From: a virus
Direction: 5' to 3' (one strand)
IMG/VR virus record: IMGVR_UViG_3300045988_026548
Span: 1 to 58,501 of that record
Length of the DNA stretch: 58,501 nt
The translations under genes and the position numbers were made by a program. Below the pieces are notes generated by a model. It did not search any database. It was given only the letters and a program-made list of their open reading frames with translations, and was not told where the DNA came from. Shown here piece by piece: positions 12,033-58,177 of this stretch; position 1 is the stretch's first letter; every line of letters starts with the position of its first letter.

Positions 12033-12746
12033 ATGCAGTACATAACAGTGAACATTGTGTGCCCCCGATATAAAATCTACCCACGATTTCTTGATAAGAT
12101 AAACATTAGCGCAAATGCGAAGGTCATCTATGTAGACCTTCTTGATCGTTCGTTCACGTCAAGACATAACGGTAAAGAATGGGTCGATAGCAAAGGACGG
12201 GTGTTTGTTCGATGTTCCAACGCAGAAGCAGGGGACATGGTAGGGAAGAAGGAAAGGATAGCCAAAGAATACTTGAAAGAGCTGAAAGATGCAGGATTGA
12301 TTGAATGCAAGCGCAATTATTCAAAATCCAACACGATTTACGTTGGGTATCCTGACGATGAGAAACTGTTCGACTATCAATCAGGCAATATATTGCCCAA
12401 CTGTAATGGCAAACAGGCAGAAAATTGCCCGACAATCGGGCAAAATAGTGCCCAACAATCGGGCAGAAAATTGCCCACTAGTAGATATATACATAGTAAA
12501 TATAAACATAGTAGATTAGACGAGGGCGCTCCGTGCGCTCCTCAGTTCGAGGAGGTTAGCGAGTTCTTTATTGACAACGGAAGCACGACAAGGTATGCCA
12601 ACCAGTTCATGCGGTATTACGAGGGACTTGGATGGAGAACAAAAAGTGGCAGTCCTATTATCAACTGGAAGCCAATAGCCCTTAATTGGATTGACCGAGA
12701 GCGGGAGAAGCAGCAGACTGATGGGTCTGACTTCCCACGATTGTAA
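12033..12746 (+). CDS. RepA_N-type replication initiator with DnaD-like C-terminus
   Basis: YPRFLDKINISANAKVIYVDLLDRSFTSRHNGKEWVDSKGRVFV...LKELKDAGLIE matches the RepA_N pattern; iteron array lies downstream and one iteron overlaps its RBS region. Confidence 0.65.
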   Translation: MQYITVNIVCPRYKIYPRFLDKINISANAKVIYVDLLDRSFTSRHNGKEWVDSKGRVFVRCSNAEAGDMVGKKERIAKEYLKELKDAGLIECKRNYSKSNTIYVGYPDDEKLFDYQSGNILPNCNGKQAENCPTIGQNSAQQSGRKLPTSRYIHSKYKHSRLDEGAPCAPQFEEVSEFFIDNGSTTRYANQFMRYYEGLGWRTKSGSPIINWKPIALNWIDREREKQQTDGSDFPRL

Positions 12747-13574: not shown

Positions 13575-13645
13575 CGTGCCAGGAAGAAAGCATAATGCTA
13601 GGCTAATGCCAGGCTAACCAGGTGCCAGGCTAATGCCAGGCGTGG
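13575..13645 (+). repeat. Short tandem repeat (A)ATGCCAGGCTA, 4 copies
   Basis: tgccagg at 13577, 13607, 13623, 13634; ggctaa at 13601, 13612, 13628. Confidence 0.75.
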
Positions 13646-44144: not shown

Positions 44145-44663
44145 ATGAGCTATTACCAGATACCCGGAACGCCCTACGTTCCGCAGCAGCCTGTCAATCC
44201 TTACGGCGGCATGGGTACAGTAGGGCTTGCCACTTCCCTGCCAAACACGCAGATGCAGCAGCCACAGCCGCAGCGTCCGCAGCCGATGAATGGGCAGCAG
44301 CCTGTTCAGCAGTCGGCACAAGATGGCGGCTGGTTGCTTGGCAGACCTGTGTCCAGCAGGGAAGAGTTTTTGGCGATACCGTCCGACCTATACGGAAGAT
44401 GGACGTATTGCCCGGATTTGCGTAGTGGTGTCATCTACTGCAAACGTCTGAATCCAAACACTTGCGAATCTGACGTGTTAGAGTTTTACAGCCCGGAAGC
44501 ATGGCGGCAAATGCAAGCACAACAGGCACAACAGACCGCTGCACCGACACAGCAGTATGTGCCTATTGAGCAGTACAATGCCCTCGTGCACCGGCTGGAT
44601 GAACTGGAAAAGTGGCAGAAGAGCTTTTCTAAGCCCGCTGCCGCAGCAAAGAAAGGAGAATGA
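44145..44663 (+). CDS. Gln/Pro-rich hypothetical protein
   Basis: aaggagggatgttttATG RBS; low-complexity PQQPVNPYGG...QMQQPQPQRPQP N-terminus. Confidence 0.6.
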   Translation: MSYYQIPGTPYVPQQPVNPYGGMGTVGLATSLPNTQMQQPQPQRPQPMNGQQPVQQSAQDGGWLLGRPVSSREEFLAIPSDLYGRWTYCPDLRSGVIYCKRLNPNTCESDVLEFYSPEAWRQMQAQQAQQTAAPTQQYVPIEQYNALVHRLDELEKWQKSFSKPAAAAKKGE

Positions 44664-47506: not shown

Positions 47507-48079
47507 TTAATCCTCCAAGAAATCCTCCAATTCAATCTTTCCTTCTGCCGCCGCAACCGCCAGAGCGTACACGAACTGTCCAATCGTCATTCCGTGCCGT
47601 CTGGCTTCACGGTTGATGTACTTGCGCTCTTCCTCGCTCATAAGGATGGTAATGCGCTTGGAACGCTTGCCATCGCCACTTGCAACGCCCTGATGTGATT
47701 CCGGCATCGGGATTTTTTTCTTTGTCAGACCAGCTTCAGCTAGTGCGCCGGGAACATCGCCTTGTTCGATAAGACGTTGAACTTCCTTTGCCTGTTTCAG
47801 CTTCTTTGGCTTACTTTCGCTTACTACGGCATTGTTCGGCTGTGTTTCGCTGTCTTTGGCTTGCTTCGGCTTAATATCGCTTAACTGTGCTTCATTAGGC
47901 TGTGTACGGCTGTCTGTGGCTTCATTAGGCTTAATCAATGCTTGTTCGGCTTCGTTCGGCTTCGCTTGGCTTACTTCTTCTTCCTTTGGCTCACTTCGGC
48001 TTAATGTCTGTTCCGAAAAAATAGGCTGAAAATCAAACCCGCCAAGCAAACCTGAGGATTTTTTGCTGGTCGATTTCAT
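47507..48079 (-). CDS. RHH DNA-binding protein with 10-aa tandem repeats (candidate centromere-binding ParG/ParR-like protein)
   Basis: C-terminal KRITILMSEEERKYINREARRHGMTIGQFVYALAV fits ribbon-helix-helix; six xxxKPNEAxx repeats; same operon as parA. Confidence 0.5.
   Translation of the reverse strand: MKSTSKKSSGLLGGFDFQPIFSEQTLSRSEPKEEEVSQAKPNEAEQALIKPNEATDSRTQPNEAQLSDIKPKQAKDSETQPNNAVVSESKPKKLKQAKEVQRLIEQGDVPGALAEAGLTKKKIPMPESHQGVASGDGKRSKRITILMSEEERKYINREARRHGMTIGQFVYALAVAAAEGKIELEDFLED
47801..48000. repeat. Array of 20 consecutive decamers, TTnnTTnGGC type (10-bp-phased GGCT)
   Basis: 14 of 20 decamers end in GGC, 3 in CGC, 1 in TGC; 30-bp super-period; lies inside CDS 47507-48079. 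Confidence 0.85.
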
Positions 48080-48603
48080 TCTGTGTCAGCCTCCTCATAA
48101 TCCGAATCTTCAAAGGACGGAGCTTCTGGTAGCGGCATCCAATGCGTCGCTCCAAGATTATTACACCAATCTGTTTTCCAAATAGGTTTACCACCGTCTT
48201 CTGGATAGAAGTAACACTGTGCAATATCTGTTCCTGTCAACGGCGATGCAACGAGGACGGGATTGCTTTCAAGTTCTCCGTTTATATCCACCATTTCTGG
48301 GTAGTGGTCGCTCACTTTAATCCATTCCTTGCTCCATAACCATTTTTCCTTGAAATATTGTACATCCTTCTTATACTGCTCTTTATCAGTGTCGCCACTT
48401 CTGTACCAATCACAGCTATGCAAAACACAAAGCAAATCGTACAGAAGCATACTCAAATCTTTGTCTCCAAGCGGATTTTCTTCTCGTGCAATAATCGAAA
48501 GCTCTTTTACACGTTCATCTGCAAGGCCATAATCTGGGTAGCAATGCTGATAAATAGCATTTGCAAGGCTGTCATTTTGATAATCCCAATGTCCACCGCT
48601 CAT
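48076..48603 (-). CDS. Protein with DUF551-like C-terminus
   Basis: C-terminal ATHWMPLPEAPSFE; overlaps both neighbours by 4 nt. Confidence 0.6.
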   Translation of the reverse strand: MSGGHWDYQNDSLANAIYQHCYPDYGLADERVKELSIIAREENPLGDKDLSMLLYDLLCVLHSCDWYRSGDTDKEQYKKDVQYFKEKWLWSKEWIKVSDHYPEMVDINGELESNPVLVASPLTGTDIAQCYFYPEDGGKPIWKTDWCNNLGATHWMPLPEAPSFEDSDYEEADTE

Positions 48604-49370
48604 TTTTCTTCTCCTTCTACAATAATCTCTGCCAACGCCTTGAAGTCCTCTGCGCTTGTGCTCTTTGCCGTGTCGCCGCTAAACAGGCTGTGCCGCTCTG
48701 CCTGCGCCTTACGAACGCCCATAGACGGTCTAATCTTCACATCCAACAGCGTTGTACCCATACTCTGTGCAATCACCGGAAGCTGCTCCACAACCTCTTT
48801 GGACAGGTTCTCCCGGCTCTTGTACTGGTTCAAAAGCAGACCTTCAATCTTCAAAGTTGGGTTGAAATATCTGCGAACATCTCCGATTGTCTGCGAAAGC
48901 TGGCTCAAACCAGCCAGTGCATATCGGTCTGCTGTGATTGGCACGATAATACTGTTGGCGGCGATCAGCGCGTTCACAAGCGCAAGACCAAGCTGCGGGG
49001 GAGTGTCCAGCACAATGTAATCATACTGACCAGACACGCTTTCAAGGGCTTCTCGTAGCCGGAAGTTCTTGCCCATGTCCCGGACGAGCTGTTCATCAAT
49101 GTCCTTCAATGCGTTGTCAGACGGCAGAATGTCACCGGCTTCACAGTGCTGGATTCCTTCTTCGACCGTACCTTGCCGTGTCATCACATCGAACAGGGTG
49201 CATACGTCCTCTGTCTGTGCGCCGTAGGTGTCCGTTGCGTTGCACTGGGCATCGCAGTCCACCAGCAGGACTTTCTTGCCAAGCAACTGCAACGCACCAG
49301 CCAGACAGGTGCTTGTGGTGGTCTTTCCTGTGCCGCCCTTCTGGTTGGCGACAGCTATGATTTTTGCCAT
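48600..49370 (-). CDS. parA: ParA/Soj-type partition ATPase
   Basis: MAKIIAVANQKGGTGKTT deviant Walker A; LLVDCDAQCN; YDYIVLDTPP. Confidence 0.9.
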   Translation of the reverse strand: MAKIIAVANQKGGTGKTTTSTCLAGALQLLGKKVLLVDCDAQCNATDTYGAQTEDVCTLFDVMTRQGTVEEGIQHCEAGDILPSDNALKDIDEQLVRDMGKNFRLREALESVSGQYDYIVLDTPPQLGLALVNALIAANSIIVPITADRYALAGLSQLSQTIGDVRRYFNPTLKIEGLLLNQYKSRENLSKEVVEQLPVIAQSMGTTLLDVKIRPSMGVRKAQAERHSLFSGDTAKSTSAEDFKALAEIIVEGEEK

Positions 49371-49714: not shown

Positions 49715-50836
49715 CTACTTCAAGAAGCTATCATCAAACGTAGCATAATCGTCAAGGTCTGCTTCTTTCAAAATTGAGTACATATAAGCGCCGGGGTCTT
49801 TTTCAATCCTATCAAGTCGCTCGCTGACTAGAATCCTGTATGCATTCTCAATGATATTCACAACAGCTTCTTTTTTCTTGTTAGGCTTGATGTTCGGATA
49901 CTTCTCCGGCAATCTCTTTGCCACCAGCTTTGCGGTCAAGATACACTGGTTTTTAGACATCTCCGGTGCAATAGATGCCCAATCCACATCCTCGTATGCG
50001 CCGCTACGGGGCTTTCTGGCAGGTCGTTGGCTCTTTGGAACATCTTTTAGCTCTACGCTTTCAACCTCGTTAGCTTCCACGTCTATGACTGGCTCATTAG
50101 ACTTGAAAGCCACATTGAACTTCACAGCAACCGCATTGCGACCTCTCATGACCTTGTCATATTCAACGCACAGGTCTGATACTTCGTTTATTTCAGCTAC
50201 CGCAATATCAATGACACGCCGCCTAAGATGCTTGAACTCTTGATAACTAGGTTCTCTTGCACCAAGCTGTTCCCTTAATCTATCCAACGTAATTTCGGGC
50301 TGGCTCACGCCACGCCCAATAAACTCTCGGAGAATCGAATACAACAAAATGCTATACTGCGATTTCATATTTGCTGTGTAGCGTAAACGGTACTTGACAT
50401 ATCCACGCTCCGCAATGTCGAAGAAAACAGGTTGCAGAAGCGGATTGCAACACAATGACACAGTAATATTCATTAAACTAGGTTCAAAGTTTACAGTTGC
50501 TCTACTGAACAGGGGATACAAGTCAAACGAGCCTGAACCGTCACCTCTAGGAACTTCAACAGAGTTGTCGATGAAATGCTTAACCTGTGCTTTCAAATTC
50601 CTAGAGTTGATTTTCAACCCCAGAAATTCGCAATATTCTTGTAACGTAAACTGAACCGTTGAAGTTTCAGGGTCTCTCGGATTGATACGGCTAAGATAAA
50701 CTTCAAGTAACCGTAGTTCTCCTGCTGTATAATCAGTGAACTTTGCCCAAACAAGCTGTCTGCTTTTTTCAACCAAGTTCCCGCCTTTAATATCAGACAA
50801 TCTTATCACGCCTCCTCTCGTATAAGAGTATATCAC
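49715..50836 (-). CDS. rep: Rep_3/RepB-family plasmid replication initiator
   Basis: LVWAKFTDYTAGELRLLEVYLSRI..., KYRLRYTANMKSQYSILLYSILREF, IDIAVAEINEVSDLCVEYDKVMRGRNAVAVKFNV; a TTG at 50800 has the better RBS spacing. Confidence 0.85.
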   Translation of the reverse strand: MIYSYTRGGVIRLSDIKGGNLVEKSRQLVWAKFTDYTAGELRLLEVYLSRINPRDPETSTVQFTLQEYCEFLGLKINSRNLKAQVKHFIDNSVEVPRGDGSGSFDLYPLFSRATVNFEPSLMNITVSLCCNPLLQPVFFDIAERGYVKYRLRYTANMKSQYSILLYSILREFIGRGVSQPEITLDRLREQLGAREPSYQEFKHLRRRVIDIAVAEINEVSDLCVEYDKVMRGRNAVAVKFNVAFKSNEPVIDVEANEVESVELKDVPKSQRPARKPRSGAYEDVDWASIAPEMSKNQCILTAKLVAKRLPEKYPNIKPNKKKEAVVNIIENAYRILVSERLDRIEKDPGAYMYSILKEADLDDYATFDDSFLK

Positions 50837-50838
50837 AG

Positions 50839-50964
50839 ATAGGTGTACAAATCAATAGCAAATGTACACCTATTTCCACTTCTTGTACACCTAACTGTCC
50901 ACATTTCGTACACCTATTTCCACAATCTGTACACCTATATCCATTTTTTGTACACCTCTTTACA
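50839..50964. repeat. Rep_3 iteron array (TGTACACCTATnTCCA, 5 direct copies at 21-22 bp spacing plus 1 inverted)
   Basis: Direct copies at 50863, 50884, 50907, 50928, 50949; inverted core ataggtgtaca at 50839. Confidence 0.85.
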
Positions 50965-51148
50965 TTATATAAAACAAGACTATTAACAAGATTATAAAAT
51001 AACTTCTACTAATAGCAGAAGAAGAAAATTTTCCACAAAATCTTTTCTTTCTCTCTTAAAAAGTGGAAAACACAAAGCGAATACTACCAAATAAACAGAT
51101 GTTCAACATCCGAAAGGTCGAAGCACTTAACGGTTAGGTTTACCTAAC

Positions 51149-51348
51149 GTGTACAAAAAGTGGATGAAAAACTTTTAAGCCGGTGTTATGGGGGACAGAA
51201 TGACAAGACACTCAATCGCAAACAATAAATTAGCGATAATCCGCTATTTATTCCGCACGAATATTGTCGATTCATAGCCTATGGGGGACGGATTGACAAG
51301 GCAAATTTGCCCGATAGGTGTACAAAAAGTGGATGAACGTGTACAAAA
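51149..51348. repeat. Paired 20-21 bp repeats A (gtgtacaaaaagtggatgaa) and B (tatgggggacRgaWtgacaag) in A-B...B-A order
   Basis: A at 51149 and 51318; B at 51187 and 51280; extra gtgtacaaaa at 51339. Confidence 0.8.
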
Positions 51349-51378
51349 TGTTCTTCAAAAACTGCGATAATTCGACAA

Positions 51379-57722: not shown

Positions 57723-57730
57723 TTTTGTAC

Positions 57731-57780
57731 AGCCAAGTTAAGCCAAAGTAAGAACAATGAAGCCTAATGAAGCCGAAGAA
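57731..57780. repeat. Second 10-bp-phased AGCC array (reverse orientation relative to 47801-48000)
   Basis: AGCC at 57731, 57741, 57761, 57771; 57760-57774 aagcctaatgaagcc is the exact reverse complement of 47918-47932. Confidence 0.8.
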
Positions 57781-57790
57781 AGGAAAGAAA

Positions 57791-58177
57791 ATGGGCAAAT
57801 ACAAGAAAGAAATCAAGCATTGCGAAAAGTGCAATAAGCCTTTTTCAGTGTTCCCAAACAGCACGGAAACTCTTTGCACAAGTTGCAAAAGAGACAATTT
57901 GGAGGAGACGCTTCGCAAGAACGGTTACGCACCGCAGCATACGCTTGTTAGGAGCCCTTATGACGGAATCAAGGAAGTGCTTGCTGTCGAAGATGCCGCA
58001 ATAAGAGCTTCGGGGGACGGGAACACAAGCGTTGAGAAAACGTGCCGTGACTGCGGCAAGCCTTTTGAAATTACCAAAGCAGAGCGCATTTTCTTTGAAT
58101 CGCACAACATGGCATTGCCTAAGCGTTGCCCGGCTTGCCGCAAAGCGAGAAAAGAAGCGAGGAAGGAGAACAACTGA
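57791..58177 (+). CDS. Zinc-ribbon protein (C-terminal CxxC...PKRCxxCR type)
   Basis: CRDCGKPFEITKAERIFFESHNMALPKRCPACRKARK; alternative ATG 57767. Confidence 0.6.
   Translation: MGKYKKEIKHCEKCNKPFSVFPNSTETLCTSCKRDNLEETLRKNGYAPQHTLVRSPYDGIKEVLAVEDAAIRASGDGNTSVEKTCRDCGKPFEITKAERIFFESHNMALPKRCPACRKARKEARKENN

What the first reader, a model, noticed from the sequence alone, without database searches (positions are those of the whole stretch)
47801..48000. 200-bp array of helically phased GGCT decamers embedded in the coding sequence of the RHH protein
Seen: cut into 10-mers from 47801, 20 consecutive decamers follow a TTnnTTnGGC pattern. Fourteen end in GGC, three in CGC and one in TGC. A 30-bp super-period corresponds to six 10-aa repeats (xxxKPNEAxx) in the minus-strand RHH protein.

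A strict 10-bp DNA period is not expected from coding constraints alone, since 10 is not a multiple of 3. It places the GGCT motifs on one face of the helix.

Established knowledge: RHH centromere-binding proteins (ParR/ParG types) bind arrays of short, helically phased direct repeats.

Inference: this may be the partition centromere, or an autoregulatory site, dual-coded within the gene for its own binding protein. That arrangement would be unusual.
Basis: partly seen in the sequence, partly recalled or inferred. Interest (0 to 1): 0.7.

Follow-up and report, generated by a model that had tools for sequence, protein, structure and literature searches.

The report
Partition-site repeats written inside their binding-protein gene
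A gut phage-plasmid carries about twenty 10-bp-spaced DNA motifs inside the gene for its ribbon-helix-helix partition protein, and comparison with relatives indicates they are a DNA site (most likely the protein's own centromere/operator) rather than a by-product of coding.

Summary
Positions 47801-48002 hold 20 decamers, AAGCCnAAgn on the coding (-) strand. Lag-10 identity is 0.61 and z is 12 against a Markov null.

The 10-nt unit is read in all three frames, which produces the 10-aa peptide repeat. Codon choice adds periodicity beyond what the protein requires (z 4.7-6.2).

In 74 relatives, diversity follows the decamer register and not the codon register. Third-codon-position diversity in the array is halved.

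The only other phased AAGCC array in the 58.5-kb window is non-coding (57730-57784) and is conserved.

Distant homologues (30-47% identity) sit in the same Rep_3-ParA-RHH module. Their tail peptide is not conserved, but most keep a 10-bp DNA period with type-specific cores. Each examined locus of a type with a 10- or 20-bp intragenic array, except one 3-kb contig (L186), has a second array with its own core. Two of these lie directly upstream of parA. A short-tailed member has no intragenic array, but has non-coding phased repeats just downstream of its gene and a shared 15-nt word upstream of parA.

Best reading: these are binding arrays for the RHH centromere-binding protein of a type Ib-like ParA system, with the main array embedded in the region that codes for its own disordered tail. 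Binding itself is untested.

Intragenic parS sites and intragenic replication origins are known. An RHH direct-repeat array of this kind inside its own gene turned up in none of five full-text literature searches.

The parts
47801..48002 (-). Array 1. About 20 direct decamers with consensus AAGCCnAAgn, forming the coding sequence for residues ~27-93 of the RHH protein (the disordered tail).
47507..48079 (-). Gene for the 190-aa RHH protein, the candidate centromere-binding protein (ParG/omega-like architecture).
48020..48079 (-). Codes for the conserved N-terminal peptide MKSTSKKSSGLLGGFDFQPI. This is the only tail segment conserved across distant homologues. A role as a ParA-contact motif is inferred.
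47537..47668 (-). Codes for the ribbon-helix-helix domain (residues ~138-181). The beta strand is KRITILM.
48600..49370 (-). ParA, a Soj-like Walker ATPase. The likely true start is MAKIIAV.
48076..48603 (-). DUF551 gene lying between parA and the RHH gene. It is absent at this position in variant relatives, so it is an insertion in the par operon.
57730..57784 (+). Array 2. Five to six phased units with the same AAGCC core, in the 68-nt intergenic region upstream of a zinc-ribbon gene.
57791..58177 (+). Treble-clef zinc-ribbon gene immediately downstream of array 2. A 1-nt indel in relatives excludes the upstream ATG at 57767 as its start.
49715..50836 (-). Rep_3 (WH1-WH2) plasmid replication initiator at the head of the same minus-strand module.
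50838..50961 (.). 21-22-bp iterons (TGTACACCTATTTCCAC...) upstream of rep, with inverted copies at 51146-51165 and 51314-51351 and an AT-rich stretch. These are the presumed Rep_3 origin, distinct from the 10-bp arrays.

Best explanation
The window is a ~58-kb gut phage-plasmid. Its maintenance module reads: iterons, Rep_3, ParA, (DUF551), RHH protein.

The RHH protein is built like a type Ib centromere-binding protein. It has a short conserved N-terminal peptide, a ~70-residue disordered tail, a helical linker and a C-terminal ribbon-helix-helix domain.

Proposed mechanism. The 200-bp array of 10-bp-spaced AAGCC cores that encodes the tail is the main cis site for this protein. One RHH dimer would bind each core in successive major grooves on roughly one face of the helix and coat the array cooperatively. 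The many N-terminal tails would then be presented to nucleoid-bound ParA, so that the prophage-plasmid is partitioned.

The small array upstream of the zinc-ribbon gene would be a secondary operator or centromere. Coating of its own ORF could also limit RHH expression.

The 10-aa peptide repeat is a by-product of a 10-nt DNA unit being read in three frames inside a sequence-tolerant disordered tail.

Shown here: the periodicity, the DNA-level constraint, the non-coding copies, the type-specific co-variation of cores, the synteny and the fold. Inferred: that the RHH protein is the binder, the centromere role, the ParA stimulation and the autoregulation.
For: (1) The DNA period exceeds what coding requires. 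z is 4.7-6.2 against synonymous nulls. The same holds in four other decamer-type genes (z 2.5-3.9) and in the 20-bp type (z 2.1).

(2) In 74 unique relatives, diversity tracks the decamer register (eta2 0.21, z 8.3) and not the codon position (eta2 0.036). Third-position diversity is 0.097 in the array against 0.155-0.205 elsewhere in the gene.

(3) Only two places in the 58.5 kb have at least 4 phased AAGCC units, and 20 shuffles gave none. The second place is non-coding and conserved in 58 unique relatives: pi is 0.070 against 0.146-0.273 at flanking third positions, with cores at 0.050 and spacers at 0.104. As in array 1, the base after AAGCC is the most variable position.

(4) Distant homologues keep the module Rep_3-ParA-RHH-<DUF7841. 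Their tail peptides differ, but the tail DNA is periodic: 10-nt in five of them (lags 10/20/30, z 3.8-7.1) and about 20-nt in the P0136 type (z 4.3). The cores are type-specific.

(5) Every examined locus of a type with a 10- or 20-bp intragenic array, apart from the 3-kb contig L186 (no second array found), has a second array with its own core. In L182 and L185 it lies in the Rep-ParA intergenic region directly upstream of parA. In L184 and L187 it lies in another gene. Cores from one type give no phased arrays in another type's locus.

(6) The short-tailed member L268 has no intragenic array. It has phased [CG]AAGT repeats in non-coding DNA just after its RHH gene, and shares a 15-nt word with the region upstream of parA.

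(7) Unit similarity parallels the beta strand. KRITILM goes with AAGCCnAA and PRITIIM with CAGCgGAA. TRMAIAM and KRVSVAM go with different units.

(8) No conventional site is available. The gap between parA and the gene upstream of it is ~17 bp, and the iterons fit Rep_3.

(9) Known RHH centromeres are arrays of 7-11-bp-spaced short repeats. Examples are nine 9-bp repeats in pCXC100 (PMC3074162) and the tetramer boxes of parH (PMC3130281).
Against: No binding, footprint or plasmid-stability data exist.

One genome (IMG/VR contig 083472; loci L167 and L100) carries a different RHH type (47% identical) yet still has the AAGCC array 2. Either array 2 is orphaned there after a recent cassette swap, or another protein reads it.

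That variant type has a 9-nt period that is fully explained by its peptide (z 0.5), so an intragenic DNA site is not universal in the family.

A few window-family variants break strict phase: a 6-nt deletion in P0027, and a 51-nt deletion in the 173-aa forms.

All arrays whose orientation can be assessed have the core on the local sense strand, so an RNA-level reading is not excluded.

The Pfam RHH hits are below their gathering thresholds.
Confidence: 0.7

Rival explanations
1. The arrays are real DNA sites but are read by a protein other than the RHH protein, for example a phage regulator or host factor conserved across the phage family. Their position inside the RHH gene would then be incidental.
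For: Genome 083472 has a different RHH type but keeps the AAGCC array 2. Array 2 lies in the early operon, far from the par genes.
Against: The core motif changes together with the RHH type in five types. The second arrays carry the type-specific core. ParA stays ~90% identical while the RHH gene and its array are swapped. Two second arrays sit at the usual type Ib operator position upstream of parA.
Confidence: 0.1
2. This is a peptide-level, low-complexity repeat. The disordered tail expanded by slippage or unequal recombination, and the DNA period has no function of its own.
For: The tail is predicted to be disordered. Copy number varies in steps of 10 aa (150/160/170/180/190 aa). The P0126 type has a purely peptide-explained 9-nt repeat.
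Against: The unit is 10 nt and not a multiple of 3, and lag-10 identity is at least as high as lag-30. Synonymous sites are constrained in the decamer register. The same phased core recurs in conserved non-coding DNA. Peptides are not conserved among types while a 10- or 20-nt period is kept in every type except P0126.
Confidence: 0.07
3. This is an RNA-level element. The repeated AAGCC motifs on the sense strand would form a single-stranded binding platform in the mRNA or 5' UTR, for example for translational control.
For: In the window, L182, L185, L184 and L187, the core lies on the sense strand of the local transcription unit. Array 2 abuts the ribosome-binding site. The array RNA is less structured than shuffled versions (z +2.46).
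Against: No Rfam family matches. RHH domains are double-stranded-DNA binders. A ~10-nt period fits the DNA helical repeat. L268's array lies after a terminator-like hairpin, downstream of the gene. The orientation argument rests on only about four independent cases.
Confidence: 0.05
4. This is a contingency (phase-variation) locus. Gain or loss of one 10-nt unit would shift the frame and switch the RHH domain on and off.
For: The unit length is not a multiple of 3. Some database proteins are frameshifted or truncated after the array (P0122, P0124).
Against: The units are degenerate (TRF reports 66-87% matches), which is poor for slippage. Almost all full-length variants differ by multiples of 30 nt. 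The truncated forms are rare singletons on short contigs.
Confidence: 0.03

Closest known systems
Type Ib partition systems with RHH centromere-binding proteins: TP228 ParF/ParG-parH, pSM19035 delta/omega, pCXC100 ParA/ParB
   Same: A small Walker ParA is paired with a protein that has a flexible N-terminal tail and a C-terminal RHH domain. The cis site is an array of short, closely spaced, often non-palindromic repeats that are coated cooperatively (nine 9-bp repeats in pCXC100; tetramer boxes in parH; PMC3074162, PMC3130281). Some relatives here also have an array directly upstream of parA.
   Different: The main array here (20 x 10 bp) lies inside the binding protein's own ORF and encodes its tail, whereas PMC3074162 places type Ib centromeres upstream of the operon. 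There is no detectable sequence similarity to ParG, omega or pCXC100 ParB (no PDB sequence hit). The tail is much longer (~90 residues against ~20-65).
parS inside the gene of its own binding protein: SCP2 parT (PMC12260392). B. subtilis spo0J is a further example, cited from my own knowledge.
   Same: The centromere is dual-coded within the gene for the protein that binds it.
   Different: Those are single inverted-repeat sites (18 bp in SCP2 parT) bound by ParB-type proteins. They are not a 200-bp direct-repeat array, and they do not generate a peptide repeat.
Replication origins inside initiator genes: pSK41 Rep boxes in rep (RepA_N; PMC5703833). Lambda ori in gene O is a further example, cited from my own knowledge.
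   Same: Repeated binding sites for a protein are embedded in the part of its own gene that encodes a dispensable or variable linker. Site and protein are inherited as one unit.
   Different: Those are replication initiators, not partition proteins. Here a separate Rep_3 with conventional upstream iterons is present.
Archaeal SegA/SegB (10.1101/2025.02.07.637068)
   Same: An RHH protein partnered with a ParA-like ATPase has sites that are mostly intragenic, some of them within segAB.
   Different: Those are scattered single palindromic 13-bp sites on a chromosome, not a phased tandem array.

Membership tests
Type Ib (ParA + RHH CBP) partition system | Small Walker-type ParA ATPase lacking an N-terminal HTH domain | tested here: met
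   AAA_31 1.2e-53, CbiA 3.8e-24, PHROG ParA-like 3.5e-60. Relatives start at MAKIIAV, giving 255-256 aa.
Type Ib (ParA + RHH CBP) partition system | [quoted passage not shown] | tested here: met
   Pfam NikA-like 1.8e-5, TacA1 and DUF6290, all below gathering score. In the AF2 model, residues 1-90 have block-mean pLDDT of 42-54 and the two C-terminal helices have block means of 83-94. The top Foldseek hits are all RHH proteins; CopG 1ea4 has TM 0.83 normalised by target, with weak E-values.
Type Ib (ParA + RHH CBP) partition system | CBP gene immediately downstream of parA in one operon | tested here: met
   The two genes are directly adjacent or overlapping in L163-L167, L184, L185, L187, L268 and L269. 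In the window itself a DUF551 gene is inserted between them.
Type Ib (ParA + RHH CBP) partition system | [quoted passage not shown] | tested here: inconclusive
   Repeat arrays exist. In the window, however, the main one is intragenic and the second is 10 kb away. L182 and L185 do have an array directly upstream of parA.
Type Ib (ParA + RHH CBP) partition system | The CBP binds the repeats cooperatively, and its tail stimulates the ParA ATPase | not testable with these tools
   Only indirect evidence is available: the core motif co-varies with RHH type and the N-terminal peptide is conserved.
Rep_3 iteron origin | Direct repeats of ~20-22 bp next to the rep gene with an AT-rich region | tested here: not met
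   The 10-bp array does not fit this description. True 21-22-bp iterons lie at 50838-50961 next to rep.
Simple-sequence contingency locus | Near-perfect short tandem repeats with frame-shifting copy-number variation | tested here: not met
   Units match at only 66-87%. Length variants are multiples of 30 nt.

The most novel reading that the evidence does not exclude
A family of phage-plasmid partition proteins writes its own centromere into the DNA that encodes its disordered tail. A 10-bp binding unit is read in all three frames, so the peptide repeat is a shadow of the DNA site. Site and DNA-binding domain then travel and diversify as one ~600-bp specificity cassette, creating new incompatibility types while ParA stays constant.
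Probability: 0.55. Interest if true: 0.8.

Novelty: new variant of a known kind. Interest (0 to 1): 0.72.

Why it matters
If confirmed, this would be a clear natural case of a protein-coding region whose sequence is dictated mainly by a DNA-binding array. It would show that disordered tails can serve as 'free' coding space for cis elements.

It would add a new layout to type I partition systems, in which the centromere lies inside the gene of the RHH centromere-binding protein.

It suggests how site and binder specificity stay linked in highly mosaic phage genomes.

It gives a very abundant but uncharacterised gut phage-plasmid group a testable maintenance mechanism. Hundreds of 55-60-kb contigs belong to this group, and one protein cluster has 3,621 member sequences.

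It also warns annotators that peptide repeats whose DNA unit is not a multiple of 3 nt may mark hidden DNA sites.

Tried and rejected
- PLSDB plasmids: no nucleotide match.
- GenBank phages: only two unannotated fecal contigs.
- PDB by sequence: no hit.
- GTDB genomes: no relative of the RHH protein. ParA gave only generic hits at 47% identity or less, so the host remains unknown.
- Alignment-based locus search in GTDB failed because no conserved stretch was available.
- The P0132 type is absent from IMG/VR. The metagenome scan gave one fragment.
- Cluster look-up gave no organism names.
- Promoter and terminator scans were uninformative at both arrays.
- Structured RNA was rejected: fold z +2.46 and no Rfam match.
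- The 21-bp repeats at 50863-50961 were considered as the centromere and rejected. They are typical Rep_3 iterons next to rep, with an AT-rich stretch.
- The antisense ORF 47832..48029 was judged a stop-free artefact of the repeats.
- Five full-text literature searches found no description of this element or of an intragenic RHH direct-repeat centromere.

Full report
**Observation**

Fourteen units end in GGC, three in CGC and one in TGC; two are off-pattern.

On the coding (-) strand the unit is AAGCCnAAgn, repeated 20 times and running to 48002.

Identity at lag 10 is 0.61, at lag 20 it is 0.52, at lag 30 it is 0.57, and at other lags it is 0.15-0.35. The information in the 10-column alignment is 9.56 bits. 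A Markov null gives 2.7 +/- 0.56 (z 12). The region has the strongest period-10 Fourier power in the window.

An unbiased lag-10 scan of all 58.5 kb flags only this array and one other place.

**Relation to coding**

The array lies in the ORF 47507..48079 (-), which encodes 190 aa. Lag-30 identity does not exceed lag-10, so the DNA unit is 10 nt.

The frame passes over the unit in three registers: AGC-C gives Ser, AAG-CCn gives Lys/Gln-Pro, and GCC gives Ala. This generates the ~10-aa peptide repeat (S..KPNEA..).

Codon choice adds periodicity beyond what the amino-acid sequence requires. z is 6.2 when the same protein is recoded with local codon usage. z is 4.7 when its own synonymous codons are permuted, and 0 of 5000 permutations reach the observed value.

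**Population evidence**

The protein has 819 database relatives. The 120 best hits of the first search are 188-190 aa long and 88-96% identical, most from 55-60-kb gut phage contigs. IMG/VR holds 513 loci.

I analysed 74 unique gene sequences with 92-96% nucleotide identity. In the array, third-codon-position diversity is 0.097, against 0.155-0.205 in the rest of the gene. First and second positions are more variable than elsewhere.

Diversity follows the decamer register (eta2 0.21, z 8.3 against permutation; other periods give z below 3). It hardly follows codon position (eta2 0.036).

The positions G, C, A5 and A9 are the most conserved. The base after GCC is hypervariable (pi 0.21).

Length variants of 150, 160, 170 and 180 aa differ by whole multiples of 10 aa, which is three units. 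Rare variants break phase: a 6-nt deletion and a 51-nt deletion.

**A second, non-coding array**

Only two places in the window have at least four phased AAGCC units, and 20 shuffles gave none. The second is 57730-57784 on the + strand. Its units are CAGCCAAGTT, AAGCCAAAGT, AAGAACAATG, AAGCCTAATG and AAGCCGAAGA.

It lies in the 68-nt gap before a treble-clef zinc-ribbon gene. A 1-nt indel in relatives rules out the upstream in-frame ATG as that gene's start.

Across 58 unique upstream sequences (67 unique rows in the wider alignment used for the diversity figures), the intergenic region has pi 0.070, against 0.146-0.273 at flanking third-codon positions. Cores have pi 0.050 and spacers 0.104. 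Again the base after AAGCC is the most variable. One relative lacks exactly one 10-bp unit.

**Context**

The minus-strand block contains, in order:
- a cI-like HTH gene;
- 21-22-bp iterons with an AT-rich stretch (50838-50961);
- a Rep_3 initiator (49715..50836);
- a 93-aa ORF;
- ParA (48600..49370);
- a DUF551 gene;
- the RHH gene;
- a 143-aa ORF.

A terminase gene and other phage genes lie elsewhere in the window. The element is therefore a phage-plasmid.

The protein hits RHH families in Pfam, all below their thresholds. AF2 predicts residues 1-90 as disordered, followed by linker helices and two confident C-terminal helices. The best Foldseek matches are CopG-DNA (TM 0.83 normalised by target), CdbA, AtaR, TacA, AmrZ, Arc and NikA.

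**Distant homologues: the decisive comparison**

An exhaustive profile search found only about 30 clusters at 50% identity, so the family is narrow. DNA for six further types was recovered.

All of them lie in the same module, Rep_3-ParA-RHH, and in most the RHH gene overlaps the end of parA. The DUF551 gene of the window is therefore an insertion.

Across types, only the N-terminal peptide (MKxTSKKxSGLLGGLDFQ) and the RHH domain are conserved. The tail peptides are unrelated.

Yet the tail-coding DNA of five of these genes (from L182, L184, L186, L187 and L269, i.e. the P0132 type and the PRITIIM group) has the same 10-nt period. Four of them gave z 3.8-7.1 at lags 10, 20 and 30; L269 was flagged by the lag-10 scan. 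The period exceeds synonymous nulls in the four that were tested (z 2.5-3.9). The cores are type-specific:
- ACAGCgGAAt in the types with beta strand PRITIIM. This is close to the window's AAGCCnAA, whose beta strand is KRITILM.
- GtCAGagGAA in the type with beta strand TRMAIAM.
- A 20-bp unit in the type with beta strand KRVSVAM.

Every examined locus of a type with a 10- or 20-bp intragenic array, apart from L186 (a 3-kb contig) where none was found, has a second array with its own core:
- L182 (1194-1260) and L185 (391-467): in the Rep-ParA intergenic region directly upstream of parA. PMC3074162 describes this as the usual centromere/operator position of type Ib systems.
- L184 and L187: inside another gene.

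Cores from one type give no phased arrays in another type's locus.

The short-tailed member L268 (102 aa) has no intragenic array. Instead it has phased [CG]AAGT repeats in non-coding DNA just downstream of its gene, and shares a 15-nt word with the region upstream of parA.

The exception is the P0126 type (47% identical to the window protein). Its tail has a 9-nt period that is fully explained by the peptide.

**Interpretation**

The arrays are DNA-level elements. Their motif co-varies with the RHH domain, and in some types they occupy the usual par operator position. The simplest reading is that they are binding arrays for the RHH centromere-binding protein of a type Ib-like ParA system.

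In the window, parA has no room for an upstream site; the gap is ~17 bp. The 200-bp intragenic array is therefore the best centromere candidate.

The rest is inference from known RHH segrosomes (PMC3074162, PMC3130281):
- one dimer binds per decamer on roughly one face of the helix;
- binding is cooperative;
- the N-terminal peptides are displayed to ParA;
- coating of the ORF may act as an autoregulatory roadblock.

**Caveats**

- No experiment exists.
- One genome combines the P0126-type RHH with an intact AAGCC array 2 (loci L167 and L100).
- L163 and L164 show a visible swap scar: the P0126-type gene is followed by a truncated window-type RHH with 4-5 AAGCC units. This suggests recent cassette replacement. 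ParA stays ~90% identical across the swap.
- All arrays whose orientation can be assessed have the core on the local sense strand, so an RNA-level role cannot be fully excluded. However, the RNA is unstructured and matches no Rfam family.

**Comparison with known systems**

By architecture this is a type Ib-like system. It differs in where the centromere lies.

Sites inside the binder's own gene are known: parS in SCP2 parT (PMC12260392), SegB sites within segAB (10.1101/2025.02.07.637068), and Rep boxes/ori in the linker-coding part of pSK41 rep (PMC5703833).

I found no description of an RHH direct-repeat centromere array that forms the tail-coding sequence of its own protein, nor of this phage-plasmid family. 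I rate it a new variant of a known kind.

Noticed in passing
window 50838-50961, 51146-51165, 51314-51351: 21-22-bp iterons (TGTACACCTATTTCCAC) in direct and inverted copies flank an AT-rich stretch upstream of the Rep_3 gene. This is the presumed plasmid-mode origin.
   Followed up: partly
window 48076-48603: A DUF551 gene is inserted between parA and the RHH gene, with 4-nt start/stop overlaps. Relatives with other RHH types lack it at this position; L167 has a DUF551-like 69-aa ORF upstream of parA instead.
   Followed up: partly
L163 5594-6218 and L164 (same region): After a P0126-type RHH gene comes a small zinc-ribbon ORF, then a truncated window-type RHH (66-aa ORF, RHH domain only). 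The truncated copy is preceded by 4-5 AAGCC units and a TATAAT-like box. This looks like a recombination scar or a stand-alone regulator.
   Followed up: partly
L174 3200-4189: A 329-aa protein whose N-terminal part resembles antirepressor-type (Bro-N/ANT-like) phage proteins by eye (no family search was run on it). It carries a C-terminal RHH with the identical beta strand KRSKRITILM and lies next to a window-type RHH gene. The same DNA-reading head is therefore reused in another protein.
   Followed up: no
window 47801-48002 and 57730-57784: The base immediately 3' of AAGCC (G/A, giving a CpG when it is G) is the most polymorphic position in both arrays (pi up to 0.6). This may reflect a mutational hotspot or a position that is not contacted.
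   Followed up: partly
window 12400-12515: Three copies of a palindrome-like GGGCA(G/A)AAAATTGCCC element at 23-bp spacing are followed by 15-bp TAGTAAATATAAACA repeats. This looks like an unrelated operator or origin cluster.
   Followed up: no
window 13593-13641: TRF reports about five copies of an 11-bp unit (TAATGCCAGGC) with many indels. I did not examine it.
   Followed up: no
L184 5327-5371; L187 5602-5646 (homologue in window: 44145-44663): In the ACAGC-type phages the second array lies inside the Q/P-rich N-terminal part of a conserved 171-174-aa protein of unknown function. This is a second instance of an array embedded in coding DNA. The window's homologue has CAGCC-rich DNA there, but it is not phased.
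   Followed up: partly
window 47832-48029 (+): A 65-aa antisense ORF runs through the array. It is most likely a stop-free artefact of the repeat.
   Followed up: no
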